The position numbers and the translations under genes are program-made. A DNA stretch of 64,000 nt. Source: Ruditapes philippinarum. Its lineage: Eukaryota. The notes beneath the pieces are model-generated. The model did no database searches. It had not been told where the DNA came from and was given only the letters and a program-made list of their open reading frames with translations. Of this stretch, positions 35,101-61,419 are shown piece by piece. Each line of letters begins with the position of its first letter. The first letter of the stretch is position 1. Location: positions 1-64,000 of the forward strand of contig NW_026854483.1 of NCBI RefSeq assembly GCF_026571515.1, given 5' to 3'.

Positions 35101-36111
35101 CGTTACAGGTTATATTTTGTACCCATCCAGAAAAAGTAAAATATGACAGTTTTGGCCATAATTTAAGAATTATTATTCTTAAAATGTCACTTTACATTAT
35201 GTGAAGTAATGTTTCGAGATGACCCCCTGATTTCAAGCTAAAAAATATCCCAAGGAGATGGAGCAGTCTTCAAGATTATAATTTACTTTAGCATTGGCTA
35301 CAATAGACATAGCAAGACCTACATAATAATGTAAAAAAAGCTCCAACAAGAGTTTAAACAAGATGTACATGTATACAACAGTAAAAAGTCCCACTGTCAC
35401 ATATATAACATACAAACAAGTGTTAAAAATTCAAAAAATTCGTCAAATAATCTTTTACATTATAAACACGTTAAAAATATCTTGGGTTAAAATCTGAACA
35501 CATTTTCACTAAGAATAATCTTTGTATCAAAAATATAACATTAACAATAAATTTCACAAAATCTTGACAATTGCACATTTTCTATAATAATTTAGTAACA
35601 TATTTGGGTCCGACATATTGTAGTTAACTTTATAATTTAGTATCTTAGAGAAAATGCTTTCAATTGTATAAAAAACAATTCAAAGCAAAATATACTACAC
35701 ATAATTGTTGTGAATGTAACTTTGTTCTTACTTTTTCAGTAATTTTCGTGTTTTTTTTTCCATTTCACTAAATACTATTCAATGTATTTGAAAAAAACTT
35801 TTCTAAATATGAGAATAAAATTGAAATATGTGATTCAATAACATAATACAATGTGTAATCTTTCACAATATTCAAGTATATGATTATTTTATATCAACTC
35901 AATGCCTTGCTCAAGAACATCTTGCAAAGCATCTTGACAGTTCAAGTTCTTTACCATCCATTATTTTGCATCGTATCTGAGCACTTTCATTCAATTCAGC
36001 CCGTACACTGTTTACTAATTGTATTTAAAATGTAACTCATTACAAAACATATCAGACAACACATCACCTCATCTGATCATCTGTTGGAATGATCAAGAAT
36101 TAACTTTTTCA

Positions 36112-36956
36112 TTAGTTGAGATCTCCCCTGGGTCGTGCAGGACAATGGCGCAATGTATGAGCCCCATCTCCTGTTGCTCCACAGATTGGACATGTATACT
36201 TTCTGAGAATTGGGCAAATCACCTTCCCCCATGAATCCTTGACAACATGTGTTGTGTAAAATTCTCTTCGCTCACGGTTTCTCTTGCAGAATGCACAGAA
36301 TTTCCCTTCATCAAGGGAGCGGGAATTACGGTATCCACCATTCTCAGCATAGGAAACACCTGAATTTCCTTGCTGCATCAATTTGTTCAGCAGAAAAGCA
36401 ACATGACTAATAGATTCTGGGTATTCCACATTAAGTCCATTTGAATATCGAGGGTACACTGGAGATGTATTCCTTTCTTCATCATGTGCTTGATCTAAAC
36501 AACTATTTCCCAACATCTCATTAAAGACAGTGTCTACAGAAGCATCACTGCTGCCAAAGAATCCAGTACTAGAATAACTTGAAGAAGTATGCATGTTTCC
36601 ATTCCATACAGTTGATGTGCTCTGTAAACCTCTTGTATCAATGTCATTTGGCTGGTGTGCAATATGGCCTCTTATTTCATCGTTCATATCAATCCATACT
36701 CCATTGTCGCTGCCCCAAATTCCATCACTACTTTTTGAAGCAACAGTTGAAGACTTGTAGTCCCAAACTTTTCCTGTAGTTGACACATTGCCAGTTGCCT
36801 GTGCATTCTGGTCATTCACATCAACATTTTTCCTTTGTGTATTAATGTCAGTAAGAAACGGAGGTGAAGAATTAACAGAATCTCTACGACCTAAAACAGG
36901 CCTGGCACAAAGAAGTTCATCTGAACCTGAATAAGATGTCCACTGCTCTGATGAAT
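36112..36956 (-). CDS. nanos: Nanos RNA-binding protein, coding exon 2 (tandem CCHC zinc fingers)
   Basis: FCAFCKRNRERREFYTTHVVKDSWGKVICPILRKYTCPICGATGDGAHTLRHCP is the Nanos (CCHC)2 domain. The frame stays open upstream of the GTG-started ORF call to a phase-1 acceptor TTTTTTAG at 36957. Confidence 0.95.
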
Positions 36957-37484
36957 CTAAAAAATATCAAATACAGATTTTTTCATTTTATAACTACAGT
37001 CTGAGTCACCTTAAAAGCATATCACTATATGTTTGCTTTGGAAGTCACTGGTAACAATGCTATGAAAATTTACTGTTTGCTATGAAAAGTCAATGGCTGC
37101 TATGAAGTCACTGCATGCTATGAAACTAAGCTTTAGTTGTTGAAGATTTAGAGAAGAATATTTTTAAGTTTTTACTATATAAATGAAAGGAAAATCAATG
37201 TTACCCAGGATGGGGCCAATTTTGACCACTATATTATTTTTTCCCTCATGTTTTCGTATAATAATATCTATCAATTTGTTGTTGCATTGTGATATTGCTA
37301 AATGTTATTCATGTATATTAAAATCGAAAGTTGGATTACTTCTAAAAATATTCTGATTTGATCTGCCAATTCCTTTTTTTTATTGCAATTTTTAACATGT
37401 AAACATGAAAGGACAAAATGCCATGACAAATGCTCAACTCTCCTAATTATGTTGTCAAGATGCAACTTTTAAGGCCAAATAAAA

Positions 37485-39845
37485 ACAAGAGCACTGCTAG
37501 GCGGAGCATTATATGCACAAAGGAGTTTTTTTTGTTAGTAAGGATAAAACATTTGTAGGACATTGGAATTAAATACAGTATTACCTCCTTCAAAAAGCAA
37601 TCCTCCTTTATAGCTGAAGAACCTTCATATATATATATGTTTTCAAAGCAACAGCATCAAGTTGTAGTTATGCTTCAGAGACAACAACTTTCAGTGTAAA
37701 GATCATTGTGACCCTGACCTTTGACCTTATGACCCTAAAATCAATAGGGGTCATGTATTGGACATGGCTGTTCATCCTATAAACTTTTACAGCGTAGGTC
37801 GATTAATACTTAAGTTATTGAGAGAAAAGTTATTGAGAGAAACTGTTTTCAGTTTTAAGGTAATAGTGACCTTGACCTTTGACCTTGTGACCCAAAAATC
37901 GATAGGGGTCTTCTGCCTAATATGGACAATCATCCTATGAAGTTTGAATACTGTGGGCCAAATGGAACTTAAGTTATGCTCTGGAAACTGTTTTCAGTTT
38001 TAAGGTAATAGTGACCTTGACCTTTGACCTTGTGACCCCAAAATTAAATGGGGTCTTCTTCATAATATAGACAATCATCCTATGAAGTTTGAAGACTGTG
38101 GGCCAAATGGAACTTTAGTTATGCTCCAGAAACCATTTTCAGTGTTAGGGTAATAGTGACCTTGACGTTTGACCTTGTGACCCCAAAATCAATAGGGGTC
38201 TTCTTCACAATATAGACAATCATTCTATGAAGTTTGAAGACTGTGGGCCAAATGGAACTTTAGTTATGCTCTGAAAACCATTTTCAGTGTTAGGGTAATA
38301 GTGACCTTGATGTTTGACCTTGTGACCCCAAAATCAATAGGGGTCTTCTACCCAATATGGACAATCATCCTAGTAAGTTTGAAGACTGTGGGCCAAATGG
38401 AACTTAAGTTATGCTCCGGAAACCATTTTCAAATTTAAGGTAATAGTGACCTTGACCTTTGACCTTGCAACCCCAAAATCAATAGGGGTCTTCTACGCAA
38501 TATGGACAATCATCATATGAAGTTTGAATACTGTGGGCCAAATGGAACTTAAGTTATGCTCCGGAAACCAAATTGCTAACGGACGAACAGATGGACATAC
38601 TCACAAAATGGTGCTTTTTGATCTTTTTGGCCATTTTTAGTCACACAAGGCTTAAAACAAGAGGGCCATGATGGCCCTGAGGTCGCTCACCTGTATATAG
38701 CCCCCCCCCCCCCCCCACACCCATAAGAAGATGTTTCATGCTAAACATCTAAGCTCTAGCTCATTGGGCTTTTTAAAAGAAGATTTTTTAAAGTTTTTAC
38801 TATACACATATAGTTAAAAACGATGACACCCCTGGGGCGGGGCCAGTTTTGACCCAGGGCTTTTATTTGAACAAACATTGTAGACACTTACTGGAATGTT
38901 TCATGCTTAATATCTAAACTCTAGCTATTTGGGTTTTTTCAAAGAAGATTTTAAGTTTTTGCTATACACATATAAGGAAAATCAATGACCCCCGGGGCGG
39001 GGCCAATTTTGACCCCAGGTCTTTTATTTGAACAAACTTTGTAGACACTTACTAGAAGATGCTTCATGCTTAATATCTAAACTCTAGCTATTTGGGTTTT
39101 TTCAAAGAAGATTTTTCAAGTTTTTGCTATACACATATAAGGAAAATCAATGACCCCCGGGGCGGGGCCAATTTTGACCCCAGTGCTTTTATTTGCACAA
39201 ACTTAGTAGACACCTATTAGAACATGTTTGAAGCTAAATATCTTAGCTCTAGCTCTTGGAGTTCTTTAAAAGAAGATTTTTTAAGTTTTTACTATATGCA
39301 TATAGGGAAAATCAATGACCCCCTGGGGCGGGGCCAATTTTGACCCCAGGGCTTTTATTTGAACAAACTTGGTAGACACTCACTAGAAGATGTTTCATGC
39401 CAAATATCTAAGCTCTAGCTTTTAGGATTTTTTAAAAGAACATATTTAAAGTTTTTTCTTTCGGTTGCCATGGCAACCAGAGTTCTGCATGGAATTAAAT
39501 TCTTTGAACAATTTTTAAATGTGACCACCAAAGGAACATTCCTGTGAAGTTTGGATGAAATTGGCCTAGTGGTTTATGAGGAGATGTCATTTAAAGTAAA
39601 AGTTTACGGACGACGGACGGACAACAGACGAAAAGCGATCACAAAAGCTCACCCTGTCACTTTGTGACAGGTGAGCTAAAAAGACACACAAGTAAAAACG
39701 GAATGAATAGGATCAAAGAGAATTTACTGTTACCCATTGTTCTCCAAGTCACACAAGTACCTCTGGGTTCATACGGACGGATGGACAGAGGGACGGACGC
39801 CAGGGGGTATAACATAATATGCCCAAAATTATTTCGGGCAATATA
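37485..39845 (+). mobile_element. HINE-like element with 145-bp tandem array (~6 copies)
   Basis: ACAAGAG start; TAATAGTGACCTTG recurs at 37861, 38006, 38151, 38296 and 38441; GGAC microsatellite; terminal hairpin TGCCC..GGGCA at ~39820-39840. Interrupted by 38657-39679. Confidence 0.75.
38657..39679 (+). mobile_element. HINE-like element with ~165-bp tandem array
   Basis: ACAAGAGGGCCATGATGGCCCT..GCTCACCTG start, ~4.5 core repeats, (GGAC)n, TGTCACTTTGTGACA hairpin and GGTGAGCTAA end. Confidence 0.8.
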
Positions 39846-41509
39846 GAAATATGTCTGGTTCAGGAAACATTGGCCCAAAAATTAGGAGGGTAGGGATTTT
39901 CAATTTTTTTTTTTCCATTTTCACATGTGTTGCTTGCATAACATACTTGAACAGAGATTGTAATCAATCAATGCAAACACCAATTTTTCGAACTTCCAGC
40001 ATAGTGTGTTTCACTGCAATCTCAATATGAATGGTATTGATAAAGAATTATATTAAAATGATCACTGTCAACAAGTTAAGAATGACACTAGCAAATAGTT
40101 TAGCATCTTTTCGCTTGAAGCAGCTCTCGTAAATGAAACACTTTTATCAAACAAATGCCCTAAATTAAAACATGTTACTTCACCTTCCAAAATGTTGCCC
40201 CTTGGATGGCCGTTGACATCTCACTTTTGACGTCGTATAATACTTACATGTTTTTTGAGATTGGCCAAACGTAAAGTTGACTAAAACAATGCATGTACAT
40301 AAAAGTTTAATATTAAGTAACTCATATCAAATATTTGAAACAATGAACAGCAAAATTCATTGCTTTTCCATATTCAAAAATATTGAAGCTTATTAAACTT
40401 TTCGTACCCAAAATATTTCGCAGAGAAAATAAAAAAAATAGTTTAGGGTCGGCTGTAAAAAAATAGGGTAGGTCGGGTTCCCTGAACCAGACATATTTTA
40501 TATTTTGGCCTAAGCTTTACTATTGAAAAAACACCTTAAGCACCCCATTCTAATATCAATTGTTTCAGTGGCGCAAGATGGAGTCATCAGAGCAGAACAA
40601 CAGACGCAGCTGAAAATAGCTTCCTCGCATGAAAGAATCCAAAGACCAAGGATGGAGTTATGTGTAGGTATATCTTCTAAAAGTACTGTAAAGTAAAATT
40701 ACCATTAAACATGATGTTGTTTATTGATCTCTCAAGTATTTCAGGTTTCATTTCATGCATTGAAGATTCTTCATTTCCTATGCATCCTGAAATATAAAAT
40801 ATGGTTTTACATATTCTGTAACATAAGCTACTTTACTATTCAAAAAGATGAACTTGGAAAAAAAAGGAATGACAAACATATGAAACATCAGGTAAAAATG
40901 AACAAAATTAAATGATCTAGCTACCACTTTTGATGATAAGATCACCTTCAGGATAAAAACAATATAGAAATTCAGCCCAACAAAATGTGGATTACTTTTT
41001 AGATGTTACTAAAGATAGATTCAACAGTGTCATGTTTCCAGTAATTTGAAGTCTGAGTACAAGTTAGTCATTAGAGATTTTCCTGAGAAAAATATTTAGC
41101 AGACTTGAAAATCCCATATAATTACGCTATGGATATTGATTATAATTAAGGTCACTATGCTGGCTGATTTGTGCCATTCGTGTTTTTGCCCCGCGACCCG
41201 GCCAAGCGAAAGGGTCGCGGAATGAAAACATGCTAATTAGCGCCCCTGCTAGTGTGTTTTTGCTCCGCTCCTCGCCATTTTAACTTGTTAATTATCGACT
41301 TTTTGCTTGGCGGGGTCGCGGGACGAAAACACGCTAATTAGTGGGGGCGCGCGGCGAAGTTTTACATGCTCAAACGGACAGGCAGATATGGGCAAATCTA
41401 AATCTGCCCCCCCCCCCCACCCAAAGTGGGAGCACAAAAATACATTTATTTGATACAATGTAAGATATGGCAAGTCTAGACTATTCAAGCATATATTGTA
41501 AATATAGAA

Positions 41510-43620
41510 TATACCAATTTCTTGAAAAAAAGTTTAAGGGGGACATTATTCTAGAAATAGTCTTGCTAGAGTATTGAACCTTCTCACAAATGATTGAGTG
41601 ATAATAAGAAACATATATATGAAGTTTGAAGAAGATACATTAAGAAATAAAGAAGTTATATAAATAAACAACATTTTTTTCATGTAAATTCAAGGGAGGC
41701 AATTCTGATAATTTTTTTGTGCTAGAGTTAAAACCGTGTCATATATGATGTGGTTGGTGACCAGAAACTTACGTTTGAAATAAATACCTTAAGAAATAAA
41801 GAATTTATAGTGAAAAATCCTAAAAACTAGAATCAGATATTTTGACGAGGTTTCCGACATTTGTAAGTATGACATCTCAATATACTCCCTATAGTCAAGA
41901 TTAAAATGATGTGTATAATTTCCATACTACCATCTATCCATATTTAAAGACTCATAAAAAAATTCAGGTTTTTTTTTTACTAATCACAAATATTGTTATA
42001 TTTGCCATGTTTTAAGCCTATTTGTTGCCATGGCAAACATTTTTTTTTCAAAATAGGTGAAAAGAAATCGACATGCATAATCTCCATACTGCCATCTACC
42101 CATATTTCAAGTTTCATAAAAATATTTTCAGTACTTTTTGCATTACCACTAGATCCAGTTTACGTGTTAAATTTGCCTTATTTTTAGTCTATTTGTAAAA
42201 CCACAATTTTCAAAATAGGAAGAAAAGAAAAAGATGTGCATAATTTCCAGACTGCCATCATCCCATATTTCAAGTTTCATAAAAATATTTCAAGTACTTT
42301 TTGCCGTATCACTGGATCCAGTTTATGTGTAAAATTTGCCATCAAAATTTTCCGTCAGTCCCGAAGTCTGTCTGTCAGTCCGTCCGTCCACAAAACTGGA
42401 ACCCGCGATAACACAAAAAGTACTAAAATATTTTTATGAAACTTGATAAATGGATAGGTGGCAGTATGGAGATTAGGCCGTCTTTTTCTTTACTACCTAT
42501 GTTGAAAATTCTGGTTGCTATGGCAACAAATAGACTGAATTTCAATATTTCCGATTTAAATTTTTAAGCTTTTTCACTAAAAGTTCTTCATTTCTTAAGG
42601 AGTTTACTTCAAACTTTAAATATTAGTTTCTGGTCATCAACCACATCATATGTGACTAGGTTTACAACTCCAGCACAAAAATTATCAGAATTACCTCCCT
42701 TGAACTTAGAATTTTTATAAAAAAAATGTTGTCTTTTTTAAATAACTTCTTTATTTATTAATGTAACTATCTACTTCAAACTTCATATTTATGTTTCTTA
42801 TTATCACTCAACATTTTTGAGAAGGTTAAATACTCTAGCAAGACTATTTCTAGAATTATGTCCCCCTTGAACTTAGATTTTTTTCGAGAAATTGGTATTT
42901 TTTACTCCAACTTCTTCATTCCTTATAGGATTAACTTAAAAATCCCACATCATAATAATATGACAAGGTTTATAAATCTAGAATCCATATTTCCAGAATT
43001 ATCTCCTCCTTGAAGTTTGAAATTTTCTTATTCATTCTTTCCTTCATGGATGTTCTTCAAATTCAAAATAAACATTCATTATCAACACCTACATGCACAT
43101 TATAATTATTTCTTTTTTAATTTTCATCTTTGTTACTTACTATACATTATAGTTAATGCTAATTTGAAAATTGTTATTTTTTTTACTTATCTTCTTTGTG
43201 ACTTTAAATGGTATCTTAAAACTTAAAGTAAAACTCACATCATATATGACAATGTTCATAAATCTAGCATATTTATTTCAAGAGTTATCTTCTCTTTAAG
43301 AATTTTGCATTAAAATATGTCATTTTTGAAACAATATGTTATTTTTGAAAAAATAACTTTAGAGTCTCCTTCAGGCTGTCTGTATGTACGTCTGTCTGTA
43401 TGTCTGTTCATAAATTTTTTTTCCTGAGATCACTTTTAAAGATTTTTTCCAACAAATTTACTTACAATAGAGAAAAGTTGAAACATTAGTTTAATTCTTA
43501 TTCATCCTGAGAAAATTGGACCTTTTGATTATCTGTTGTATACACATAATTTCCTTACTAGGCAGGGAAACTTAACACATTACTGTGATATAGACAAACT
43601 TAGAACTCAAAAGATTTAAG
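41510..43620. repeat. complex repeat block with internal foldback (41510-41820 vs 42570-42900) and an inverted copy at 56080-57850
   Basis: Direct reading shows reverse-complement matches, e.g. TTCTAGAAATAGTCTTGCTAGAGTATT / AATACTCTAGCAAGACTATTTCTAGAA. Confidence 0.75.
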
Positions 43621-43848
43621 TTCATTCATGTCATTCATTAACTGGTAAAATTGAATGGCCAATGGCCCATCAGAATGTTGCTGGGGTTCTAACCGGTAGG
43701 GGACTTGTGGATTGCTTGCAATACTTTGATAATTTGCTTGTATTAACTAGCTCTGCACTGTCTAGTAATATTTTTGGGGAAAATATTGAAAATGATGAAT
43801 TATACTAGTTATTTACTAAAATAAACTGTTTTTATTTTTTTTATTTAA

Positions 43849-44460
43849 CCCATTACTTCATGAGCATTTTGTGAAAAATGGCTGTTTTCATTGAAAAGTC
43901 TCCCGTTCAAATTGCTATAATGCTATAAAAACTGCTTCAATACTAATCAAACTTGGCACAAATGTTGACTGGACCATTGCCCTTGCAACAACATGCTCAG
44001 GCTAAAATTTTCTGTTAACATGGCAACGAGGGGACATCTCAAAATTGCCAAAAATCACTATTTTGCGTTGATTTTTTCCATCAAAATTGATTTCAAAGTG
44101 CTGCAACTTCTCAATGGATTGAGATAGAGTCAAATACTTTTCAGCGTTGGTTACACGTTACCTTATGATCAATCTGGGTTCATTTTTAGCCTCTCACAAG
44201 TCCAAAATTTTCTTGGCGATGAGGGGGACTGCTGTCCCCCTTCAAACCCCCCAAACAGAAGGGGGCACATCCCCCTTCTGGCAACCCCCTGATGTATCTT
44301 TTAGTTGGGGGAACACGCCGAAAAAGTGGTCACTTTTTTTAACAACATTTCTCAAACAAAAATAAGTGTTGGGGTCCTAAATAAGCCATTTTTTCACCAT
44401 TTGAGACAAAAAAAAGGGGGGTGAAAAAGGCATTAAAAGGCGTTTATATCGCATAATGGG
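43849..44460. mobile_element. piggyBac-type MITE, longer copy
   Basis: TTAA|CCCATTAC start, ATAATGGG end (right TTAA missing); reverse complement of 127-521 plus a ~230-bp internal segment. Confidence 0.75.
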
Positions 44461-45144
44461 AAGTCCCCTCCGGTAAACCGGTAGGGGACTAACTAGAAAT
44501 GTGTCATCATGCCACGGATGCCCCCGCATGCAGCCAAAATTTCAGATATTATAATATTTAGTCAGGGTTCTCGGGGACGCTTATTTCAGCGTCCCGGTAC
44601 GCATGTTTATTGCAGCTGGACGCAAGTATTTCAGAGCAAGGATTCCGCGTACGCTTAATTTTGCCTGGGGACGCATAAACATAACAGATAGTTTTACACC
44701 CCTAAATACACAAATACGTCGGCGCGTGTCAGTCGATAAGTAGGCCGTCCTATGCACATCGACCAGTAAAGCGATTAGCCAATCAGCGATAGCGCTTCCA
44801 CTCTGATTGATGGATCATTATCACGCGACAGCGATCAGACTAATGTATACATGCGCTGTACATGTAATTACCAGACATAACACGAGGTGATAATCTTTTT
44901 ATCTTTGATCAACAGTTGATTGGAAATTAGCAAATTTTACCGACAAACGGATTAACTGTTGACTAATTAGGTGGAAATTAATTACGCCGCAAGCTTAAAG
45001 ACTGTTTTCTCAAGTTTACAAATGAGTGTAATTATGAATAATTGTCGGTTATTTTCGGCATTTTCTAGGCAAAATTTTGCTTTAGTTTTCATTCTTGAAA
45101 AAACGTTCTATGAGAGCATTAAGAATTTAAGATATTGTGCCGAT

Positions 45145-47914
45145 ATGCCTGGACAACAAACGTTATTTAATTGTGGTGTAAAACGAAAAAGGGATGACCA
45201 ATGTGATAAAGTCAGAGACTCGGATGATAATAATGACATTGACACAATTTCAAACGCTAAAAACTTGAAAAGGGAATGTATACCTGGAAATCTGAATGGA
45301 AAAGAACATTTCCGTGGTTAGAAAAAAATGGAAAAGATGGAAATTTGCTTGCTATTTGTGCTTGGTGCAAGGCTTCAAAACGAAGCAATTCAATGGCAAC
45401 AGTTGGCTCACCAAATCTACAGGTAATATTTTTATTGCTTCATATTAACTTAAATAAGGCCATCCTTAATCAACATTAAATCTTTAAATATTGACGTCCA
45501 ATTTGCCCCTTTTGAAGATATTTGCTAAAATAATTGTCGATCAGATGAATCTCTTACACACTGTGTGAAGCTGTACACGATTTTCCTATTCATATCACTA
45601 AATGCTGCCTATATACATGTACAAATTTTTTACAAATATAATGAACTTTTGGTCTTAAAGAGTGGACTTATTTAACCAAAATATAATTTGATTTGGTATA
45701 AAGGTGAAAAAAAAACAATAACGATTAATACGTTTGTTTCAAATTCATGTACATGTATGATACATCAATGAATGAAATATTGCCCCTGTAAATAATAAAT
45801 TAATTATTCATTTTTTTCCCCAGAGTTCTACGAGGCCACAAAGGACCATTTATTTGCGACACAGGCACGCCATTCCATACAAAAGAACATTACTGTGCAG
45901 AAAGTTGTCGAGTCGCTTAATGAACAAGACCAGGAACAGGATACCGATTCAATTACGGCACAACTGAACACTATGTATTACATAGCCAAACAGGGGGTTG
46001 CCCTGAATCAGTTTGACAAGATTATAGAACTTCAGGTAAGAACAAGTAATTTTTGAAAATCAGATATTCTACAAATGCTGAAGATATTTTATGAACTTTC
46101 ACACATCTTAATAATGACAATGTCAATCTATAGCAAAGAAAACATAATTATCTAAGGTATACCAACAGCAAATATGTGTTGAATTGGCATTGAAAAGAGG
46201 CAAATTGTATGTGTTATGATGTAGATTAACTGAAATAAATTATAATTTATATTGAATTTAATTATATTTTAATAGTCGGTTCTATATCATACTTGCTTAA
46301 GTGTTGAACTGATATAATAACAGAACTCAAGATATCAGACTATCATTTTACAGCTTGATATGTATTTCTGTTTTAGGTCAAGAACAACTGTCCAGGGTTA
46401 CAGAATCCAAAGAAAATATATACAAGTGAGGAGTCGAAGACCGAGCTCCTAGATGCTATCAATGCTACACTAGACGAGAACCTGACTGAAAACTTACACA
46501 AATCAGATTACATTGGTCTTGTACAGACATTACAGTGCACAAAAAATTGAATGTGTATGTGAAGTGTTTAGTCTCTAATGAACCAAAAGTTCACTTCTTG
46601 GAGTGTATTAATGTTCAAAATGGAACAGCAGACACCATAGTTACAGCTGTTAAGGAACTTTTCACAGAGAAAAATATACCTCTAGACAAAGTTGTAACTC
46701 TCGCAAGTGATGGAGCCAGTGTTATGACGGGTAAGAAGGGAGGTGTTGGGATCAAATTAAAAGAATTTTCACCCTTGATGATACAAATTCATTGTGTTGC
46801 GCACAGGTTGGCCCTTGCTGCAGGTCATGCTTGTTGAGATATCCCAATGCTTGATGAGTATCAGCAGACAGTAAAGTGTATCTATCGCCATTTTAGTAAC
46901 TCAGCCGTAAGATACAATAAGCTAAGAACTCTTGTGAAGGTGTTGAAGGATGATGACATCAAATTTGTGACTTTAAAAGAACCATCCAGCTTTAGATGGC
47001 TTTCAGTAGGTAAGGCTGTTGACGCCATTTATGAAGTGTACCCAGCTTTGTATCAGACACTAGAACAAGAAGCAGCTGAGGGACAGGCTGATGCTAAAGG
47101 GCTACTCACAAAGATAAGAAATGTAAACTTTGTACTTGTGACTGCTTTTCTTAAGGATGTTCTGAGCATCATAACTAGGCTAAGTACAATTCTTCAAGGG
47201 GACTATGTTGACATTAACATTGTAGAAACACAAATTGAGCTATCTCAGGCAAAGTTGGATAGAATGAAAAGAGTGAATGGGAAGGAGCTTGAGGCAACAT
47301 ATGATAGTATAGACAATGGTGTATATAGAGGGGTTAAGTTGGTGGAAAGAGAAACACTGAGAATTGGTTTTCAAAACAGTGCAAATAAATATCTTGAAAA
47401 GCTGTGTGATAATATCAAGGACAGATTTGAACCAGAATCAATGGCAACCCTGAAAAATCTTGATGCTGTACTCAACCCAGAGAAGGTACCGAAGGCTATA
47501 GCAGCATTAGAGTTGTATGGAGAGAAAGACTTAGAGGAACTTATTAGAGTGTATGGTGTTAGTGTTATTGATGGAGACAGAGCACGAGATAGCTATTTGG
47601 ATGTGAAAATCATTCTGAAGAATCTGAATATGAACCTACAAGAAGGGTGTGTGCATATCATTAAGAAATACAGTGAACTTTACCCTGACTTTGTTCAACT
47701 AGCCAAAATCCTTCTTGTTTCCCCTGTCACTTCTGTAGCATGTGAAAGAGGATTTAGTGTTCACAACCATATTAAGACCAAAGGACGCTCTAGACTAAAC
47801 CACAATACTGTTGTTAAGCTCATGAGAATAACACAAGAAGGTCCCTCTTTGAAAGACTTCAACCCCTGTGCCAGTGTTGCCAAATTTAAACAATTGCGTC
47901 CAAGGAGGAAGTGA
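45145..47914 (+). pseudogene. hAT transposase (ZNF862-like), 3 exons, disrupted
   Basis: TTF-like Zn finger (WKRTFPWL..CAWC), SDGASVMTG, HCVAHRLALA, RWLS, SVACERGFS dimerisation motif. Introns 45423-45823 and 46036-46376. Frameshifts near 45276, 45829 and 46520; TGA at 46835-46837. Confidence 0.88.
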
Positions 47915-48215
47915 ACAAAACTCATGAACTGAATGAATGAAAGTCTAAAATATCCATGCCCATAAGGCACTTGAGGAGCTAAATAATTTAGCTAGTCAAT
48001 AGTTACTTTATATTTGAGGAAAGACATTTAAGTGACTGATTTTGATAGCATACATGTATATGTTCTTTTGAGTAGACTGTCTATTTTGATCACATAACAC
48101 ATGTCCACATTATGACTTGTTCTATTTCAGATGACACAAATATGGGAAAATATTTATTAAGTTATGTTCTGTTATTTTCATGCTATTTATTTGAAATCTA
48201 TCATCATGTTGACAT

Positions 48216-48218
<3 letters not shown>

Positions 48219-48277
<59 letters not shown>
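48219..48277. repeat. (AT)n microsatellite
   Basis: Perfect AT run inside the 3' part of the hAT element. Confidence 0.95.
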
Positions 48278-48279
<2 letters not shown>

Positions 48280-50224: not shown

Positions 50225-50452
50225 TTAGAAGCCTTCAAACTCCTCATCGTCACTTTCACCAAAGAGTTCATTAAACTGGCATTCAGTTAAAGTGTCAGCG
50301 TAAATATCTGTGTCCTGGTCATTTTCCTCATTTTCAGGCACAACATCTTGCTTGCTACTAGTACTAGCAAGAAATTCAGAGAAGAGTTCATCATCCTCAC
50401 TTCCATCTAATGAATTCGAAATTCCACACTTGAGGAAAGTTTTCTTTTGCAA
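50225..50452 (-). pseudogene. pogo/Tigger transposase C-terminal remnant
   Basis: FLKCGISNSLDGSEDD followed by an acidic tail ending FEGF is typical of pogo-family C-termini. A pogo-type TIR CGTCTTATAGTCGGAGAAATACGG|TA lies at 56056-56081. Confidence 0.7.
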
Positions 50453-50473
50453 ACTGAATTACAGTCAATTTAA

Positions 50474-53400
50474 AGAGCTAGGTTCACTAACTACTGAAAA
50501 TGGCCCCCAAAAAATCAAAAATAAAATCTAAGGAAAAACTTTTTTTGTGTTATGTTTTTAATTAACAACATTAATGCATCATAAAAATCATTTTTCTTTT
50601 TTAAAAATCGTTGTATAGGTAATAATAATGTACCGTTGTTAGGACCCTATTCTGGCAAAAATAGCAATAATTCATAAAAATCTGGTGTTATTTTTTATTT
50701 TCTCAATATGAGCGCACGTTTGTTCCACCTTTAAACTTACTTTGAATAATTTGTAATTCTATTGTCCTTCAATAAATCATCGTTAGCTTGTGGAACATGC
50801 ATGCGCTCACAGTATAAAATAAGAAAATTTATGCCGTCCCCCCACCCCCCTGATAATTATAAAAGGGGACCTATCGTCTTAAAAATCATCGTTATAATCT
50901 TTTCTGATAACAGATTACGCATAAATAAGCAAAGTGTGAAAGAAAACTTGAAAATAAGTTATTACAAAGTATTTACAAAACAACAACATCATGAAATACG
51001 ATAATCGCTCATTTATTCGACATCACTGGACGAACTAAAGTGGGTGCGAAACACAGCCTCGCTATTGTAAACAACTCGAGATAGACACCAACATAAAGTG
51101 CAATTCCAGGTACTTATTTTCCCCTAATGAATAAAACATGTTCAGAACCATATTTTATAACATTTATGCAATTAAGACTACCTATTGGTATTTATTTATA
51201 CTCTACTGTATGTAAATAATCAGTTTCAAAAAAGAATATTGACTGTCATGTACAGCAAAAATGAACAGGAGTTCAATCATGGATCTACGCAACGAAATGA
51301 AATTAACGATGCATAATTTCGGATCACGTTAAGTGTATTATGTGATATGGTAAAACATAAAAGAAAAGATTTCAGGCTTTTTGTTTAATATTTAAATCTA
51401 TGGAAATGTAGTAAATATCTATCGGCTGCTGTCAAATTTATTTGTACTACTTTACTATATATAGATACATGTACATATACTTCCATCACTACACTGTCTG
51501 TTATGGTACAATGGAATAGCCTGTGGAGTTCCATGCAGGAGAGATGGTTCGAAACTAACTCGAGTCACATTTTTATTTTTTTTTTTTTTTTGCTTTTTTT
51601 CATTATTATTATTTCAATTGCTTCAGATTTAAAAAGGTGAACTATGTTTAAACTGTCGGACAAAAACAAATAATAATTTATTCTTCTATGAAGCTAATTC
51701 CAATAGATTACATTTATAAACAAAATTAGTTCATTGAATTAAAGTCATACATAACTTTCATTTCACTTGAATCATATTAATTTTAATGAAAATCGCTCTT
51801 AATATTTGTTTCAGAATGTTCAAACATTTTGAATGCATTGTTTGTAAAAAAAGAATAAAACCTTCTGGAAGACGCCCATTCCTGAAGGCTAAAAAGTTGC
51901 TGAAAATGATTTTTACAACTGATCAGAAGACATAGCTATACATGCCAAGATGCCCGAATGAATGTCGAAGGGGCAGAAGCAACTAGAATCTAATGACGCC
52001 AATGAAAGTCGCTTAGTAACCAAGGTAAGATGTTGACTAGTAAATATACTTGTAAATGTATTATTTTTCACATTATGACATTATCTTTAACATACACAAA
52101 ATTATATTAATGTGTCTGCATTTGCATTTGAAATCAGGAAAAAAACAACTGATTTTGATTTGGTTAATACCGGAGCTATAACCCCAATATGTAAGTGACT
52201 ATAGCCTTACACATACTTAGCAATGAATGTAAAGGAACGGGGTTTGAACCCACTCGCTCACACTTCTTTTATAGTATTACATATATTGATAATACACATA
52301 TTACGCCGTAGAATTACCATCACAGTTGTACTTTTAAATCATTTATTGTAAATTAATAAATATTTTAATAATGTAATAACGACAACATTTTAGTGAACAT
52401 ACACAACAGAAAATGAAAACAAAAACTTTTTATCTTAGTAACGGTGTTCTTTATTTTCAGATTCGATGGGTTGTTGAGTCAGCAAATGCTCGTATAAAGC
52501 GTTTTAAGAACTTGGATCATGTTATGCCAAACAGTCAAATCTTATATATTAGCAATTTTGTTCGGATTGTATGTGCTATTTCAAACAAGTACTTCCCACC
52601 TCTCAGTAGCACAGACCAATCCGAAATTGATGTTGCTGCAAAAAGGGTCAGGCTTCTAGAGAGGGAAAACAAGCTGCAGACAATGATAGAAGAGACTGAA
52701 CTAGATAGAAAACGGACTATGTACTCTTAGGCACTTTTTTCCATTTTGACATTTACTAAAGTTGTGGCGAATAAGTTTTGTGTATCGTGTATCGAAGTCA
52801 AAATACAACTTTGTTTACATTTCGCTGCCTATCTTAATTATCAATAATTTTACATTAAAACGCCATTTTCGTTATGTGAAAAGCATCATACGTTTTCTTA
52901 ATCAATTATTACTAAACTATAAAACATACATTTTCTCTTTCTACATAAGAAAAATCAATCCGTTTATGAGTCATAATGTGCCTTTAAAGGACATTTTATA
53001 ACATTTTCAATCACAAGGTTATTTAAGTACCTAAGGACGTCTTCTATTTATTGTACATTTTCTTAGTTTACTTTTCGAAGTTAAAGCGCATTTAATCCTA
53101 AATAACTGATATAAAAATGTTATTTTATAGTCAACACTGATGATCCAAACCTCATATGTGTTAAAATGCAAAGCAAGCACACATCTTTAAAAACATACAT
53201 GATTTGGGTTAAAGTGGAAAACGAGACAGTAGTTGGGTGGTACATGCAGGTGTGGCTCCAGACTCATTGGGTTGTGTGCTCATATAGCTGCTATAGTGTG
53301 GTACCTTTCGAACGGGAGTCATAGCGGAAGAGAAAGTTACGGCATTCGTGACTGGAGTGTACATTTATCAGATGCCGCAGTGTTTGAGATTGACGAAACG

Positions 53401-54635
53401 ATCGAGCGAGACGGACTAAATAACTTGTGTTTTGTTGGCGTCTATTATAACTCATATATATTACACAGTGACGTCATGACTTTTGCACTAAATAAGTGAA
53501 TAAGTTTTTTTAAGATATACTGTAGTTGTTATAATTCACTATTTGCTACTGTTAACATAAGAAAATATCTTGTTTTTATTAACAACAAACATTTAAATAT
53601 TTTTTCGGGATGATTATTTGTTACATGAACTTGTCTAGTAGTTTATGGAGTGAGTTTCTGTTTACAGAAAATGACATACAAACACGACTCGTTATATTAA
53701 TGAACTGATTCTTTCTTATTGTTATATTCTTTTAATTTTTCAATTAAGTATTTCCAAGGATCTGTTTCATTTATTAGTTTGAAATCAAGCTGCCAAATTA
53801 AGATTTTCATAGGTATGTTTCAAGCGATATCACAACATTTTTCATACAAAAAAATACATGTAACATTATTTTCAGAAATGCATAATAATAGATATTATAT
53901 TATTAATTTTAGAATCAGTATCATAATTTTAAGTTCAAGAAGATAAAGATACCAATTCCTACATTATTGTACTTTCCTTTTTTAAAAATTAAAATCACAT
54001 TATTTTATTATATTGTTTACACCATGTTTGTATCATACAGATTTTCTGAATGAGTTGTTTGATACATGCGCTTCATATTCATTATTTAATCGTTTGTAGA
54101 AATGGTACATTGTAAACATATAAGTATTTATTTACTATTCCTGATACCGTTTTTTTAAATTTGTTATCAATCCATTTGAAGTAAATTTAACAGAACTTAA
54201 AATTTTACAAGATCATGACTTCGACATAATATATGAAAACATTTTAATTATATATTTTCAAACAAAACAGATTTAGAAGAAAAATGCGAAACTGTCCGTT
54301 TTTTTCCATCCGAAAACTGGTCTATTGCCAACAAATGTTTTATTCTTAGCTTCACTTTATACATGCTGTTGCATCTGAATTATTCAGTGGTGTTTAAATC
54401 AATCTAAAGAAATAGGAAACATATAAAATAATTTTCATTATTTTGCAAGATCAATAAGTGCCGATAATTCGATGAACAGGTGTTCCAATTAAGAGACGAC
54501 AAGTGACGTCATCGTTAGGTATTTACGACTAAGAATGAAAATTTTATCAAAAAGACATATATTTAACTATCATTAAAGGGGTTTTCATCAATTTCTGAGG
54601 TTGGGCCATTTTCAGTGCTTAGTGAACCTATCTCT
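50474..54635 (+). mobile_element. Kolobok-like DNA transposon, decayed (DDE + SWIM remnants)
   Basis: 33-bp TIR AGAGCTAGGTTCACTAACTACTGAAAATGGCCC (3 mismatches), flanks TTAA / TTGA. Spliced remnant DANESRLVTK|IRWVVESANARIKRF (intron 52025-52460) and SWIM-like CRCGSRLIGLCAHIAAIVWYL. Confidence 0.7.
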
Positions 54636-56118
54636 TTGACATCATAAGATGCACTTTTACGTTCAAGAGACATGACTTCACTTAAACAAAACTATCAGCA
54701 GTTGTAAATAGTGTATAACGATATATAAATAGAGCAATTATTTTTTTACTGTCAATCTATTTTGCTACTATTTTATAGACACCAAATTATTCTATCAATT
54801 AGATTAAACCAATCAAAGATTAATCCACTAATACCGCCATTTTTAACCAATAAAATTTAAGAATTAACAAAAATGCTATAATTTATTCACAGACTAATGA
54901 CCCTTTTTAATCAAAAACCAATGAAATTTAAGTGTAAATAATAATCCTCTAATTTATTCACAGATTATTGACCCATCTCAATTAAAGAAGGGTCCTGCTT
55001 TTAATCATCAATGTCTAGTTTTATGACAATAAACAACATATGGTAAAATGACAATTAACAAGTGTAGAAATGGCAAATAACAGTGTCTATAATTGAAAGT
55101 ATAGAATATAATTGAAAGTGTCTCTCTTGTCAGCAGGTGTCCATGCAATTTACGCTAGATTGCTTATCAATGTTTGAAGTAGTGGCAAAATATTTTTGAT
55201 TGGGGGTAATTTGCTTAGAGCATACTTATGTTTCGTAAAAAGCAGTGAGACAGATAAAAAGATATTCATACTTATCTTTTAAAAAGAAATGATATTAAGT
55301 ATAAAGTGTAAAGTAGGATCAAACAAATTACTTAACATTGTTCCAACATGTTCCATCAAAAACAATAAATAAAATGACCCAGACAAGATTTTTTCCCATT
55401 ATGAACCAAAGTTTTTGTGAAAAACAAATCTCCCCGATGTGACCTTATTTTTCTCCATGAATCTACAGGTTGTATACGACAAAATGGCACAAAATTTTAA
55501 GTTGCATTTTTTTTATAACGGAGTCTGTGACCCTTGCATACTTTCTCTGATATTTAGTTAATAATGGCATTTTTTATTAATAAAATTTTTTAATTATATT
55601 TATTAATCTTTCATACTTAATCATCATCAATTTAGTATTTTTTTTTTATGAAACTAAAGTGTCAAGTTAATATGGCATATCTGTAATTACTCTTCTAAAA
55701 AAATCAATATCAGCTTTGGTCTACATGACTAGCTTGTGCAGGTGTTATGAGGTTGATTTCCCGAAAATCTGTAAATAGCATCTTTGTTATTCAACACATG
55801 TAATGACCTAACAAATGATTACTGTTTATGTTAGTTCTCTTTTACCAAGACAATAATTGTCTTTCAAAACGGAATAAGTGGACATGGCTTGAGGCTACGT
55901 TCGTAGGGTCAGGGAGGTACATTTTTTCCTCGATATTAAAGAAGGCCCCATAGTCATTTTTGAAAATTATAAGTCAGAAAAATTTTGGTAAACGTCGTTG
56001 ATCCTCTTATAAGACGGAAAGCAACTTTTGTCTTTAAAATGGAAGAAAAAATCCCCGTCTTATAGTCGGAGAAATACGGTAAATCTTTTGAGTTCTGAGT
56101 TTGTCTATATCATAGTAA

Positions 56119-56610
56119 GGCCATAGAAAATTAATCTTTAGACTCTCATCCAGGTTTCAAGAAATAATTGGGGTGGGTGGGTGGAATTTATAATTTATAA
56201 TTTATTTTATCCATCACTTTTAAGACCTGAAAAAACAGAAATGTATGAATAAACAAAAGTGTTTAAATCTATATTTTAATGAGAATAATACTAAATGTTG
56301 TAAGATTTGTTACTTACAAACAGTTTTCTTGTTTACTGCATCATATATTTCACATATGACGAACATTTTGACAATTTTACTGATCGAAAACGAACGTATT
56401 TAAAATCTTGATCACTAGACGCTGTAAACCTCAGTCTGATTTTTATGCGTTCGTCCGCGAATATTCAACTACGATTTTCGGACGAATTTTCATCCACAGA
56501 CGTCTGCGAAATGAACAATTTTTTTTTTATGAAAATAAATTATTTTGGAGCGGAAAGATTTTGATACGGGCGGGCGAGGATGAGAGTCTAAAAATTAATT
56601 TTCTGTGGCC
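56119..56610. mobile_element. PIF/Harbinger-type MITE
   Basis: TAA|GGCCATAGAAAATTAAT..AGACTCTCATCC and its mirror end GGCC|TAA; empty site visible in the paralogous copy at ~43580. Confidence 0.85.
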
Positions 56611-56709
56611 TAATGTGTTAAGTTTCCCTGCCTAGTAAGAAAATAATGTTTATACAACAGATAATCAAAAGGTCCAATTTTCTCAGGATGAATAAGTATA
56701 ACTAACGGC

Positions 56710-57157
56710 TAGTGTTGCATCTAGAATTTCAAAATTATGGGGGATTGTCCCCCACACAATTGAAAAATGTGGGGGATTTGAAAAAGATGTGGGGGACATA
56801 CATTTACCTTACAATATGACATACCGAATAGAGTTCATTTATTTTACATTCAGGCATTTTTGACAGCTATCGTCCGCTCAAAAATGGAAGTTAAGAAAAA
56901 ATAAAATATTGACGAATACTACAAAACACACGCGAGATGACTTAGTCGGCTGCTACACGCGATTTAGTACATATTTTAGTAATAACCACGAGTGAAAACA
57001 AACATGGCTGAAGCGTTTAAGATAAGATAGAGATAAACTGAATTAAGTTGAAAAGATGGTCAGATGCGCGACTTGGCGCGCACTGACTTCAATAAAATGC
57101 GCGATCTGCATAAAAAATGCGCAAATCGCGCAATCGCGCGTCCTAGATGCAACACTG
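56710..57157. mobile_element. hAT-type MITE (8-bp TSD)
   Basis: AGTGTTGCATCTAG / CTAGATGCAACACTG TIRs; TSD AACTAACG / AACTAATG; single-copy empty site at ~43484-43491. Confidence 0.75.
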
Positions 57158-58236
57158 AACTAATGTTTCAACTATTCTCTATTTTAAGTAAATTTGTTGG
57201 AAAAAAATCTTTAAAAGTGATCTCAGGAAACAGTTTTTATGAACAGACAGACTGAAGGAGACTCTTAAGTTATTTTTTTTAAACATCCCTGTTACCAAAA
57301 TATAACATATTCTAATACAAAATTCTTAAAGAGGAGATAACTCTTAAAAATAACAATGCTAGATTTATGAACATTGATGCGAGTTTTACTGAAGTTTAAA
57401 GATACCATTTATAGTCACAAAGAAGATAAGTTAAAAAAAATTTTTTTCAAATATAACATTAACTATAATGTATAGTAAGTAACAAAGATGAAAATTAAAA
57501 ACAAAAATATAATGTAGGTGTTGATAATGAATGTTTATTTTGAATTTGAAGAAAATCCATGAAGAAATAAGAAAGTTAAAGAATGAATCAGAAAAATTCA
57601 AAGTTTAAGGAGGAGATAATTCTGGAAATATGGATCTAGATTTATTAACCTTGTCATATTATTATGATGTGGGATTTTAAAGTAAATCCTATACGGAATG
57701 AAGAAGTTGGAGTAAAAAATACCAATTTCTCGAAAAAAATCTAAGTTCAAGGGGGACATAATTCTAGATATAGTCTTGCTAGAGTATTTAACCTGCTCAC
57801 AAATGTTGAGTGATAATAAGAAACATATATATGACGTTTCAAGTAGATACATTTATAGCAACCAGAATTTTCAACATAGGAAGAAAAGAAAAAGATGTGC
57901 ATAATTTCCAGACTGTCATCTACCCATATTTCAAATTTCATAAAAATATTTTCAGTACTTTTTGAGTTATCACTTGATCCAGTTTATGTGTAAAATTTGC
58001 CATATTTTCAGTCTATTTGTTGCCATAGCAACCAGAATTTTCAACAAAGGAAGAAAAGAAAAGGAAGTGCATAATCTCCATACTGCCATTTATCCAGATA
58101 TCAAGTTTCATAAAAATATTTTCAGTACTTTTTGTGTTATCGCGGGATCCAGTTTTGTGGACAGACAGATTGACAGACAGACGGACGGAGGGTAAACCTA
58201 AAGTCCCCTACGATTAGACCGGTAGGGGACTGATTA

Positions 58237-58530
58237 ACAATATTTGATGTATTTGACAGTAGCAAGATGACACGTAAATAATCAGTAGTCGTATATCAAT
58301 TTGCACCATATATAAGAGTCTTGGGGTAGTCCTGATACTAAAAATGTGTATATATCTGGGGTGGTCTATTTACCCCTATACACCCCAAGACTAATCTGGG
58401 ACAGAAATATACGCATTTTTAGTCAAAGGACTACCCCAAATAACTTATATATTGTGTAAATTGGGAAAGTCTTATAACTGATTATTTACCTGTCATCTTG
58501 AACATTACTGTTCAATACATCAAATATTGT
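58237..58530. repeat. ~295-bp imperfect palindrome built from Mutator-like subterminal sequence
   Basis: ACAATATTTGATGTATT..CAAGATGACA.GTAAATAATCAGT mirrored by ACTGATTATTTACCTGTCATCTTG..AATACATCAAATATTGT. Confidence 0.75.
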
Positions 58531-58539
58531 CAATTATGT

Positions 58540-59773
58540 CAGGGTTCTCACTAGGACTTTAAAACATGGAGTCCATGGACTCCCAACCCTGAAAAAGTTG
58601 GAGTCCAAAAGCGCGTCACAATTAATATGTTTACAGATTAGTCATTCAATGCTCACAATAGCATTGCTGATATTTTGAATATTCAAGAAACTTCCAAAGT
58701 TTATAGTTATTCAAAAAAAACTGAACTACATAGTATAATTATTGTTCTGTTGTTAATATTTATTATGAAATTATTTCATTATAATGCATCAACACACGGA
58801 AATCGTTTTTTTGTTGTTTTTTTTTCACTTTTATACCAAATCAAATTTTATTCTGGTTAAATAAGTCCACTCTAAAGACAAAAAGTTTATATTTGTAAAA
58901 AAACTTAAATATATATAGGCAGCGTTTAGCGGAATGAATAGGAAAATCGTGTATAGCTTCACACAGTGTGTAAGAGATTCATCCGATCGACAATTATTTT
59001 AGCAAATATCTCCAAAAGGGGGCAAATTGAAGATCGATATTTAAAGATTTAATGTTGATTAAATAATAAAGGAACAATTCATTCGCATGTTTGGCTTGGA
59101 AACCGAGAATTTTTGCGAAATTTTAGGGTTTCTGGCGAACGTGAAATCGCCGATGTTCGGGATCAGTTTTCGGATAGAATCTAAATATCAAAGAAAAGCG
59201 TATGTGTATTTTGGTTTGTTGTCCTGGCATTTCAGCACAATATCTTAATACTCTTATAGAAAGTTTTTGCAAAATGAAACTAAAGCAAAATTGTGCCTAG
59301 AAAATGCCGAAAATATTCGACAATCATTCAAAATTACACTCATTTGTAATTTGAGAAAACAGTCTTTAAACTTGCGGCATAAATAGTCGATAATTTTATC
59401 CTTTTGTCGGTAAAATTTGCTTATTTCCAATCAACTGTTGATCAAAGATATAAAATTATCACCGCGTGTTATATCTGGTAATTACATGCATGTACTGTAC
59501 AGCGCGTGTATACATTAGTTTGATCACTATTGCGTGATAATGATCGGAAGCGTTTTCGCTGATTGGCTAATCGCTTCACAGGTCGATGTGCATAGGACCG
59601 CCTACCTATAGACTGACATGCGCAGACGCATTTGTGGTTGTAAACAATCGGTAATGTTTATGCGTCCCCAGGCAAAATTAAGCGTACATGGAATCCTTGC
59701 TCTGAAATATTTGCGTCCAGCTGTAATAAACATGCGTACCGGGACGCCGAAATAAGCTTCCCCGAGAACCCTG
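58540..59773 (-). mobile_element. non-autonomous deletion derivative of the hAT5-like element
   Basis: Same 10-bp TIRs; TSD TATGT (58535-58539 / 59774-59778); inverted homology to both ends and to intron 1 of 44563-48497. Confidence 0.9.
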
Positions 59774-61283
59774 TATGTATGGGTATACTTTTCATCAATA
59801 AAATATTTAAAATATATGAAAAAAATATCGTGATTTAGATAAATTTTACTGAAACAATAAGACTATGTTAATCTAACGAAATGTGGGGCAGGTGAAATAA
59901 AAATATATATATACACCCCGCAATCTGGGACTTGGAGTTATTTCATTGTTGTTAACTATTTTGCACAAAAAAGAATATATTTATAATCTTACAGGGAAAT
60001 AAATGAAGGGAGATAATTCAATGTGTACATGTGAAATCGCATAGTTACCCCCGTAAACAAAGTAAAATGAAAAAAAATACATGTCAGTGAAAGTGTCTTG
60101 TCTTGGGGTGGTCTTGTGGTGTCTTGGCGTAGTCTTGGGGTAGTCTAGGGGTGTCTTGGGGTATCTTAGGGTAGTCTTGGGATAGTCTATGGTAGTCTTC
60201 GGGTATCATGGGGTGTCTTGGGGTAAATAGACCGACCGATATTTCTGTCCCAGAGTAGTCTTGGGGTAAATAGACCGACCCATTTTAGTGTATTATAGTG
60301 ATATGGAATCAGAGATGAATTTTGTTTCTTTGGTAAATGCAAGTTATATCATAATATGTATCAGCATAAAGATGAACTAAAAAGAGAACAGATGCTATTC
60401 TAAATGTTCATGAATTAAAAATCAAAAAATCTTTTTTTCCCACTGCCTCAAACCTTAGCTTTTTTTGGATAAAAAAATGGTAAACTGAAAGATAAAAAAT
60501 AACTTAATAATGTTAAAAAGTATGTTAAATGCTTATTACATGAAGAAAATACAGCTGAATGTGCAATTATTTGTCATAAAACGAGCAAAATATAAAAAAA
60601 AGTAGTATTTTGATTTCAATACTTAATAACTATAGCTGTACAGCAACAGAAGCAAAATATTGTTCAGCTAATTGGCATGAGTAACTTTTTGGAAACTAAG
60701 TAAAAATAAAGCTTTCAAGAAATAAAAATAAAAGCATTTCTGGGCCATAATGGGCCTTTAAGCTTTTATAAGTTATGTGGACAAAAAATGCAAGAGTGGG
60801 ACTGGGTGACAAATGTCCATACAGTATACATAATACTGTAATATACTAGGAATATTAATTTGCACAACATACTGTATAAAACATAATAAATGTCAATAAT
60901 CTTGCTTATAATGATGTTGGTGCTTACAAAGACTTAAATTAACGAAAATATTGTGCAAATTTTCATGCCAATGGATAGACATATCAATTTTAACTTTTTG
61001 AACAAATACTATAATTTAAGCTTTGTGTCAAGAAAAGATTCCATGTCAAATTCTTTAATCCTATCAAATTGATTTTTCACTGAAAAAAGAAATAAAAAAT
61101 TATGTAACCACAACTTCATACTGTATTTTTGGATATGTCAAATAAAATTTAAATTAAGCGACACAAATCTGCTTGAATATGTTTTCATAATTTGCGAGGC
61201 ATTTCGCTTAAAATGAAAAAAAAACAAAAAAAACTGCAAAAATTCTCCTTTAATGCCTACAGAACTAATAAATTAAATCAAAC

Positions 61284-61338
61284 CTCCTCTTGGAATTTCC
61301 AGCTCGAAGTAGTCTTTAAAAGGGTCAAAACAATCCAT
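61284..61338 (-). CDS. nanos: Nanos coding exon 1 (MDCFDPFKDYFELEIPRG; NOT1-interacting-motif-like)
   Basis: ATG preceded by an in-frame TGA. FDPFKDYFEL resembles the Nanos N-terminal FxxWxDYLGL motif. Phase-1 donor GAG|GTTTGA matches the phase-1 acceptor at 36957 and gives a 299-aa protein. Confidence 0.75.
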
Positions 61339-61419
61339 CGTGTGTACGTGTCAACTAGGCAGAATCTCAGCAGAGACTGATGTTGCGGAAGATCCGACCT
61401 GGCCAAATCCATTCTCAAA

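What the first reader, a model, noticed from the sequence alone, without database searches (positions are those of the whole stretch)
36112..61338. nanos is split by a ~24.3 kb intron; a hidden 55-nt first exon supplies the NOT1-binding-like motif
Seen: the zinc-finger exon begins at a phase-1 acceptor (36957) with no nearby ATG. A phase-1 exon at 61338-61284, too short for the ORF track, encodes MDCFDPFKDYFELEIPRG. Known: Nanos proteins recruit CCR4-NOT via an N-terminal FxxWxDYLGL motif, and many nanos genes are compact. Inference: a 900-nt CDS is spread over 25 kb, and the motif is a variant (W->F, LGL->FEL). The donor (GTTTGA) is weak.
Basis: partly seen in the sequence, partly recalled or inferred. 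Interest (0 to 1): 0.7.

Follow-up and report, generated by a model that had tools for sequence, protein, structure and literature searches.

The report
Clam nanos gene, transposon-swollen intron
This is an ordinary, already annotated Manila clam nanos gene whose short first coding exon is real but splices to a missed 84-base middle exon, so the supposed 24-kb intron is two introns (20.5 and 3.7 kb), the longer one mostly transposon DNA, and the protein likely represses germline mRNAs in the usual Nanos way.

Summary
The small exon is real; the single 24.3-kb intron is not. The window is Manila clam (Ruditapes philippinarum). RefSeq XP_060584089.1 (327 aa) equals exon 61338-61284 + a missed 84-nt exon (40786-40703) + exon 36956-36112, letter for letter. 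Introns are 20,497 and 3,746 nt. One contig adds a non-coding exon ending at 62358, so the small exon is not always first. About 86% of the long intron is repeats, including two 5-bp-TSD hAT insertions. The NOT1-interacting motif keeps F, D, Y, L; W-to-F is the majority state among close homologues (32 of 51). A fold with mussel CNOT1 gave weak support (0.53; best control 0.18). Verdict: known gene model, known family, intron long through transposon pile-up. Loose ends: a strong-context overlapping uORF and clade-specific motifs.

The parts
62358..62387 (-). 3' part of an upstream non-coding exon (5' end unknown); donor AAG|GTATTA
   Evidence: 28 loose letters of one X3 contig match exactly; 30 letters on the short side, one under the tool's 31-letter bar; one run only
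61414..62357 (-). 944-nt GT-AG intron in the 5' leader (spliced in X3; X21 reads cover 61414 to about 61585 unspliced)
61284..61413 (-). first coding exon: 75 nt leader + 55 nt CDS (ATG at 61338), encodes the NIM-like motif
61284..61412 (-). start of an out-of-frame upstream ORF (ATG 61412, A at -3, G at +4), 45 codons, overlapping the main start and stopping 9 nt into the middle exon
   Evidence: sequence; chance rates; translation not tested
40787..61283 (-). intron of 20,497 nt, about 86% repeats
44563..48497 (+). broken hAT transposon with terminal inverted repeats and a 5-bp target duplication (hAT5-like), nested in another repeat
   Evidence: empty site at G000:C1863 holds the 5 bp once
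58540..59773 (-). internally deleted copy of the same hAT family, opposite orientation, its own 5-bp duplication
50472..54637 (+). 4.2-kb dispersed DNA element with about 25-bp inverted ends and a DDE_Tnp_4 fragment (Harbinger-like; label recalled)
   Evidence: (E 0.0011, below cut-off)
   Evidence: similar segment in Mercenaria RefSeq protein
36957..40702 (-). intron of 3,746 nt, 1,531 nt of it tandem arrays
36112..36956 (-). last coding exon (845 nt): disordered region, clade motifs, tandem CCHC zinc fingers, stop
35522..36111 (-). 3' UTR, at least to 35821 in one contig and to about 35522 in shorter pieces
   Evidence: X1 records 4-7

Best explanation
This is a bivalve nanos gene with three coding exons (55, 84 and 845 nt) and, in at least one transcript, a non-coding exon in front; its 20.5-kb intron is mostly transposon and satellite DNA, and its protein likely represses germline mRNAs by docking its N-terminal motif on CNOT1. 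Shown: exon structure, splicing from the small exon into the middle exon, repeat content, zinc fingers, motif residues, conserved CNOT1 pocket. Inferred: the intron grew by separate insertions into a normal-sized intron (about 2.9 kb is non-repeat); the zinc fingers bind 3' UTRs, probably with Pumilio; the motif recruits CCR4-NOT; the role is in germ cells.
For: RefSeq 327-aa protein equals the three-exon translation. Contigs of X1 and X3 run from 61283/4 into the first 30 nt of the middle exon, one synonymous change; X1's 1,304-nt contig leaves exactly 84 nt between its two mapped parts. 13,593 of 16,954 intron bases searched match other contigs at E<=1e-20; 17,626 of 20,497 with whole elements and arrays. 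Two hAT copies have different 5-bp duplications, and an empty site exists. Motif positions 1, 6, 7, 10 match the published almost invariant F, D, Y, L; the motif is reported in molluscs (PMC4003280 passages). Clam CNOT1 keeps the pocket residues matching human W2338, F2353, A2357 (numbering by spacing). Predicted complex of residues 1-36 with mussel CNOT1: weak support, 0.53 against best control 0.18, runs agree in at least 88% of contacts, partner pLDDT at least 65; that mark was reached by 51 of 78 solved and 2 of 108 mismatched pairs, but at 0.60 or under by only 5 of 78 solved and all 4 passing mismatches.
Against: The RefSeq model probably comes from this same assembly (contig length 102,008), so it is not independent of the DNA. 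The middle-to-last exon junction was not printed as letters; it rests on contig arithmetic across two calls and on RefSeq. X2 laid nothing on the small exon, X21 gave no listed joint, X23 did not cover the last exon. Position 4 is F, where the paper calls W almost invariant and W-to-E abolishes binding; the tail after the core is divergent. The complex score is weak, used a stand-in CNOT1 from Mytilus, ran without alignments, and a like complex is solved, so it may be from memory. Tissue of expression is unknown here.
Confidence: 0.9

Rival explanations
1. The reader's two-exon form (61284 joined to 36956, 299 aa, 24.3-kb intron) exists as a minor isoform, the middle exon being a cassette.
For: The middle exon is symmetric (84 nt, phase 1-1) and skipping keeps the frame open. 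Contigs drop rare variants, and only two contigs crossed the donor.
Against: 0 of 2 contigs leaving the small exon skip it; X1's contig runs unbroken through both junction regions; the middle exon has the stronger donor and a counterpart in Mercenaria.
Confidence: 0.12
2. The motif is decaying in this clam lineage and repression depends on other conserved short motifs (RPxLGR, STGF, YPRYS and an amphipathic helix near residues 227-243), as in fly Nanos, which recruits CCR4-NOT without the motif.
For: The Mya orthologue lacks the D and Y of the core; the clade keeps the other motifs (12, 14 and 11 of 172 zinc-finger proteins, query counted twice); fly precedent in PMC5207322 (passages).
Against: The clam keeps 4 of 5 key residues plus an aromatic; Mercenaria keeps the same core; weak predicted binding. 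No partner for the other motifs was tested; the Atlas gave no usable hit for residues 45-262.
Confidence: 0.15
3. The long intron is kept for a function (transcription delay in early embryos, or pairing of its inverted repeats to steer splicing).
For: Two repeat families lie in inverted pairs 13-16 kb apart inside the intron.
Against: These are dispersed, high-copy families with separate target duplications; no exon was found between the arms; intron length in other clams could not be read.
Confidence: 0.05

Closest known systems
RefSeq LOC132740241 / XP_060584089.1 (Ruditapes philippinarum, 'uncharacterized protein')
   Same: Identical 327-aa product from the same three coding exons.
   Different: No family name given there; its UTR exons were not visible to me.
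Human Nanos1-3 with the NOT1-interacting motif (PMC4003280)
   Same: Tandem CCHC zinc fingers; N-terminal motif with F, D, Y, L at positions 1, 6, 7, 10; conserved CNOT1 pocket.
   Different: F for W at position 4, E at position 9, divergent tail; motif on its own exon 24 kb from the zinc-finger exon; binding not measured.
Bivalve nanos of Mercenaria, Mya, Dreissena; oyster and scallop 'Nanos-like 3' group
   Same: Query sits with Mercenaria, Mya and Dreissena in a 16-row clade (95/95); that clade joins the oyster and scallop proteins at 86/93, below the starred level. Scallops share F at position 4.
   Different: Only the clam-side clade shows the RPxLGR, STGF and YPRYS motifs. Gene structures of the others were not available.
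hAT5 group of hAT transposons (5-bp target duplication; PMC12730594 passage)
   Same: hAT dimerisation domain, terminal inverted repeats, 5-bp duplication in two copies, empty site.
   Different: Not compared with named hAT5 transposases; the copy here is broken by stops and frame changes.

Membership tests
Nanos family | Tandem CCHC zinc finger (PF05741) near the C terminus | tested here: met
   E 3.7e-24, 85 bits against cut-off 27, residues 267-319
Nanos family | Long, poorly conserved, unstructured N-terminal region | tested here: met
   No Pfam hit outside the finger; Atlas model pTM 0.24, pLDDT 0.48; gappy alignment
Nanos family | Expressed, spliced, intact reading frame | tested here: met
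   Spliced contigs in X1 and X3; no internal stop
Nanos family | Germline expression and repression of target mRNAs with Pumilio | not testable with these tools
   Run tissues are not given; oyster precedent in PMC4530894 passages
NIM-bearing Nanos | F1, D6, Y7, L10 of the motif | tested here: met
   F4, D9, Y10, L13 of the protein
NIM-bearing Nanos | W at motif position 4 | tested here: not met
   F7; F in 32, W in 12, Y in 3 of 51 motif-bearing homologues among 171 zinc-finger proteins fetched
NIM-bearing Nanos | Direct binding to the CNOT1 C-terminal domain | tested here: inconclusive
   Weak predicted support, 0.53 against best control 0.18, Mytilus stand-in, like complex solved; clam pocket residues conserved
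   0 of 2 junction contigs; both enter 40786
hAT5 transposons | hAT transposase, terminal inverted repeats, 5-bp target duplication | tested here: met
hAT5 transposons | Transposase groups with named hAT5 elements | not tested
   No named hAT5 sequence was fetched

The most novel reading that the evidence does not exclude
The strong-context upstream ORF that overlaps the main start and stops in the middle exon would switch translation between full-length Nanos and a shorter form started at Met28, Met31 or Met44 that lacks the NOT1 motif, while clam-lineage motifs in the last exon give a second route to the repression machinery: a translational isoform switch of a germline repressor.
Probability: 0.07. 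Interest if true: 0.55.

Novelty: already known. Interest (0 to 1): 0.15.

Why it matters
Little as it stands: the gene model is already in RefSeq and the family and motif are known. If the upstream ORF did make a motif-less Nanos, it would be a new way to tune a core germline repressor.

Tried and rejected
Run search: no RNA holder listed on record; the guessed-RNA contigs and raw reads were laid instead. X2 laid 0 records on the small exon (a filter can drop contigs); X23 did not cover the last exon; X15 has a contig crossing the acceptor unspliced (36906-37104), so it is DNA or pre-mRNA. An alternative start at the first in-frame ATG of the last exon was dropped: spliced upstream exons exist. 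A script filter for other candidate exons returned 0, missing even the true middle exon, so it was too strict and says nothing. ESM Atlas: no usable hit for residues 45-262. The clam's own full-length CNOT1 was not returned (search limited to 2,000 aa). No strict motif match was found in the fetched DNA around the two paralogues (C4412, C946). No AATAAA/ATTAAA or Pumilio-element match in 36111-35300 (patterns recalled). Earlier findings near this place: none. Paper searches listed no paper on this gene's structure or a nanos uORF; listings only, and most subscription journals are not held. The supplement of PMC4003280 with the invertebrate motif alignment was not opened and may already show F at position 4.
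Full report
Observation. The last exon starts at 36956 after a TTTTTAG acceptor and holds an 845-nt frame ending in the Nanos zinc fingers. A strict motif pattern hits once in the window, against 0.135 per shuffled window over 200 shuffles. The region 61150-61800 is single-copy in the own genome.

Identity. The best protein hit is RefSeq XP_060584089.1, LOC132740241 of Ruditapes philippinarum, 327 aa, 100% identical. Its contig length, 102,008, equals that of the window's contig, so the model probably comes from this assembly. They map to 40786-40703, an 84-nt phase 1-1 exon with canonical sites. The three exons translate exactly to the RefSeq protein: 984 nt, introns 20,497 and 3,746 nt.

RNA. 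No holder was on record as RNA; contig runs guessed as RNA and raw RNA runs were laid. On the small exon, 2 of 3 contig runs (X1, X3; two studies) laid one contig each, and both leave at 61283/4 with loose letters equal to the first 30 nt of the middle exon, one synonymous change. X1's contig of 1,304 nt and depth 10.7 fits 61358-61283 with letters 1-76 and 36957-35821 with letters 159-1304; letters 76-159 are 84 nt. I take these as one record by length and depth; the middle-to-last junction was not printed as letters. X2 laid nothing; X21 gave 15 reads and no listed joint; X23 did not cover the last exon. A minor skipped form cannot be excluded, since contigs drop rare variants. X3's contig has 28 more 5' letters matching 62387-62360 exactly, with 0 expected by chance. 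This gives an upstream non-coding exon, donor AAG|GTATTA, and a 944-nt GT-AG intron. It is one contig with 30 letters on the short side. X21 reads cover 61414 to about 61585 unspliced, so a second leader or pre-mRNA exists.

Why the intron is long. Of 16,954 intron bases searched against the genome, 13,593 (80%) match other contigs at E<=1e-20, with only 40 candidates scored per search. Adding whole elements and tandem arrays gives 17,626 of 20,497 (86%), leaving about 2.9 kb. A broken hAT element at 44563-48497 and a deleted, inverted copy at 58540-59773 each have terminal inverted repeats and their own 5-bp duplication; a paralogous empty site on C1863 holds the 5 bp once. hAT families with 5-bp duplications are named hAT5 (PMC12730594, passages). 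A 4.2-kb element with inverted ends and a weak DDE_Tnp_4 hit lies at 50472-54637. Mean introns in print are 1,230 bp for an older assembly of this clam (PMC5499747, passages) and 2,805 bp for Arctica (PMC11899663, passages). So the intron is long, but its non-repeat part is ordinary. I could not compute the length distribution.

The motif. PMC4003280 (abstract and passages) gives F1, W4, D6, Y7, L10 as almost invariant, reports the motif in molluscs, finds minor contacts for the tail, and shows that W-to-E abolishes binding. The clam has F, F, D, Y, L. Among 171 fetched zinc-finger proteins, 51 carry a detectable motif; position 4 is F in 32, W in 12, Y in 3, other in 4; position 8 is F in 12; position 9 is E in 3. 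This set is the query's nearest neighbours, not a balanced sample. Clam CNOT1 keeps the pocket residues (numbering by spacing). Folding residues 1-36 with Mytilus CNOT1 852-1373 gave weak support: 0.53 against a best control of 0.18, runs agreeing in at least 88% of contacts, partner pLDDT at least 65. The mark was reached by 51 of 78 solved and 2 of 108 mismatched pairs, but at 0.60 or under by only 5 of 78 solved pairs and all 4 passing mismatches. Peptides are untested in that calibration, alignments were not used, and the human complex is solved, so this shows likeness, not binding.

Relatives. In a 40-row tree of the finger region the query groups with Mercenaria, Mya and Dreissena (95/95), and more loosely with oyster and scallop 'Nanos-like 3' proteins (86/93, not starred). 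The genome has two more nanos-finger loci (3 of 3 candidates scored): C4412 groups with the other scallop paralogue (97/76) and appears to have an intron near the end of the finger; C946 is a long branch. A review passage lists two scallop genes, PyNanos1 and PyNanos2/3 (PMC11374967), and oyster nanos is germ-cell specific (PMC4530894, passages); I did not match those names to sequences.

Mechanism. Shown: exon order, splicing into the middle exon, repeat origin of the intron, domain and motif content. Inferred from the family: zinc fingers bind 3' UTRs, probably with Pumilio (recalled), and the N-terminal motif recruits CCR4-NOT to deadenylate and silence targets in germ cells. I put 0.9 on the structure and about 0.75 on a working motif.

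Loose ends. An out-of-frame ATG at 61412, with A at -3 and G at +4, opens 45 codons that overlap the main start and stop at CDS nt 64. In 20,000 shuffles of the 75-nt leader, 34% had some overlapping uORF and 4.9% one in strong context, so chance is not excluded. In-frame ATGs follow at codons 28, 31 and 44. The clam-side clade shares RPxLGR, STGF and YPRYS motifs and a likely amphipathic helix, with no known match. Fly Nanos uses other motifs to reach CCR4-NOT (PMC5207322, passages), which makes them worth a test.

Verdict. Already known gene model and family. Interest 0.15.

Noticed in passing
window 61412 to 40778 (- strand, spliced): Strong-context out-of-frame upstream ORF of 45 codons overlapping the nanos start; 4.9% of shuffled leaders give one in such context.
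   Followed up: partly
window 44563-48497 and 58540-59773: hAT element and deleted derivative with 5-bp target duplications (hAT5-like), one nested in another repeat; empty site at G000:C1863:412531-412535.
   Followed up: yes
window 50472-54637: 4.2-kb element with about 25-bp inverted ends and a DDE_Tnp_4 fragment; copies about 90% alike on C11277, C15418, C8605.
   Followed up: partly
P0003 residues 65-72, 176-180, 214-218, 227-243: Short motifs conserved only in the clam-side nanos clade, of unknown partner.
   Followed up: partly
window 42348-43746 and 56611-58253; 37839-39456; 48795-49596: A high-copy dispersed repeat in inverted pair, and tandem arrays of 145, 165 and 161 nt inside the introns.
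   Followed up: partly
window 35821-36957: X1's contig differs from the assembly at 37 letters and 9 gap places over the last exon and UTR, but at 0 over the small exon: high polymorphism between animals.
   Followed up: no
L002 (G000:C4412) and L003/L013 (G000:C946): Two further nanos-finger loci; C4412 has a degenerate N-terminal motif, C946 is highly divergent and no motif exon was found in the 9.9 kb fetched.
   Followed up: partly
L008:1653-1961 and 8196-8516 (G000:C2970, about 93.6-100.5 kb): Upstream neighbour on the same strand: PP2A B56 regulatory subunit exons.
   Followed up: no
window 9333-9731 and 13821-14261 (- strand): Exon-like frames of a downstream gene with no convincing Pfam hit.
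   Followed up: no
window 62420-62800 and 63040-63200: An inverted duplication and a repeat lie just upstream of the non-coding exon (seen).
   Followed up: no
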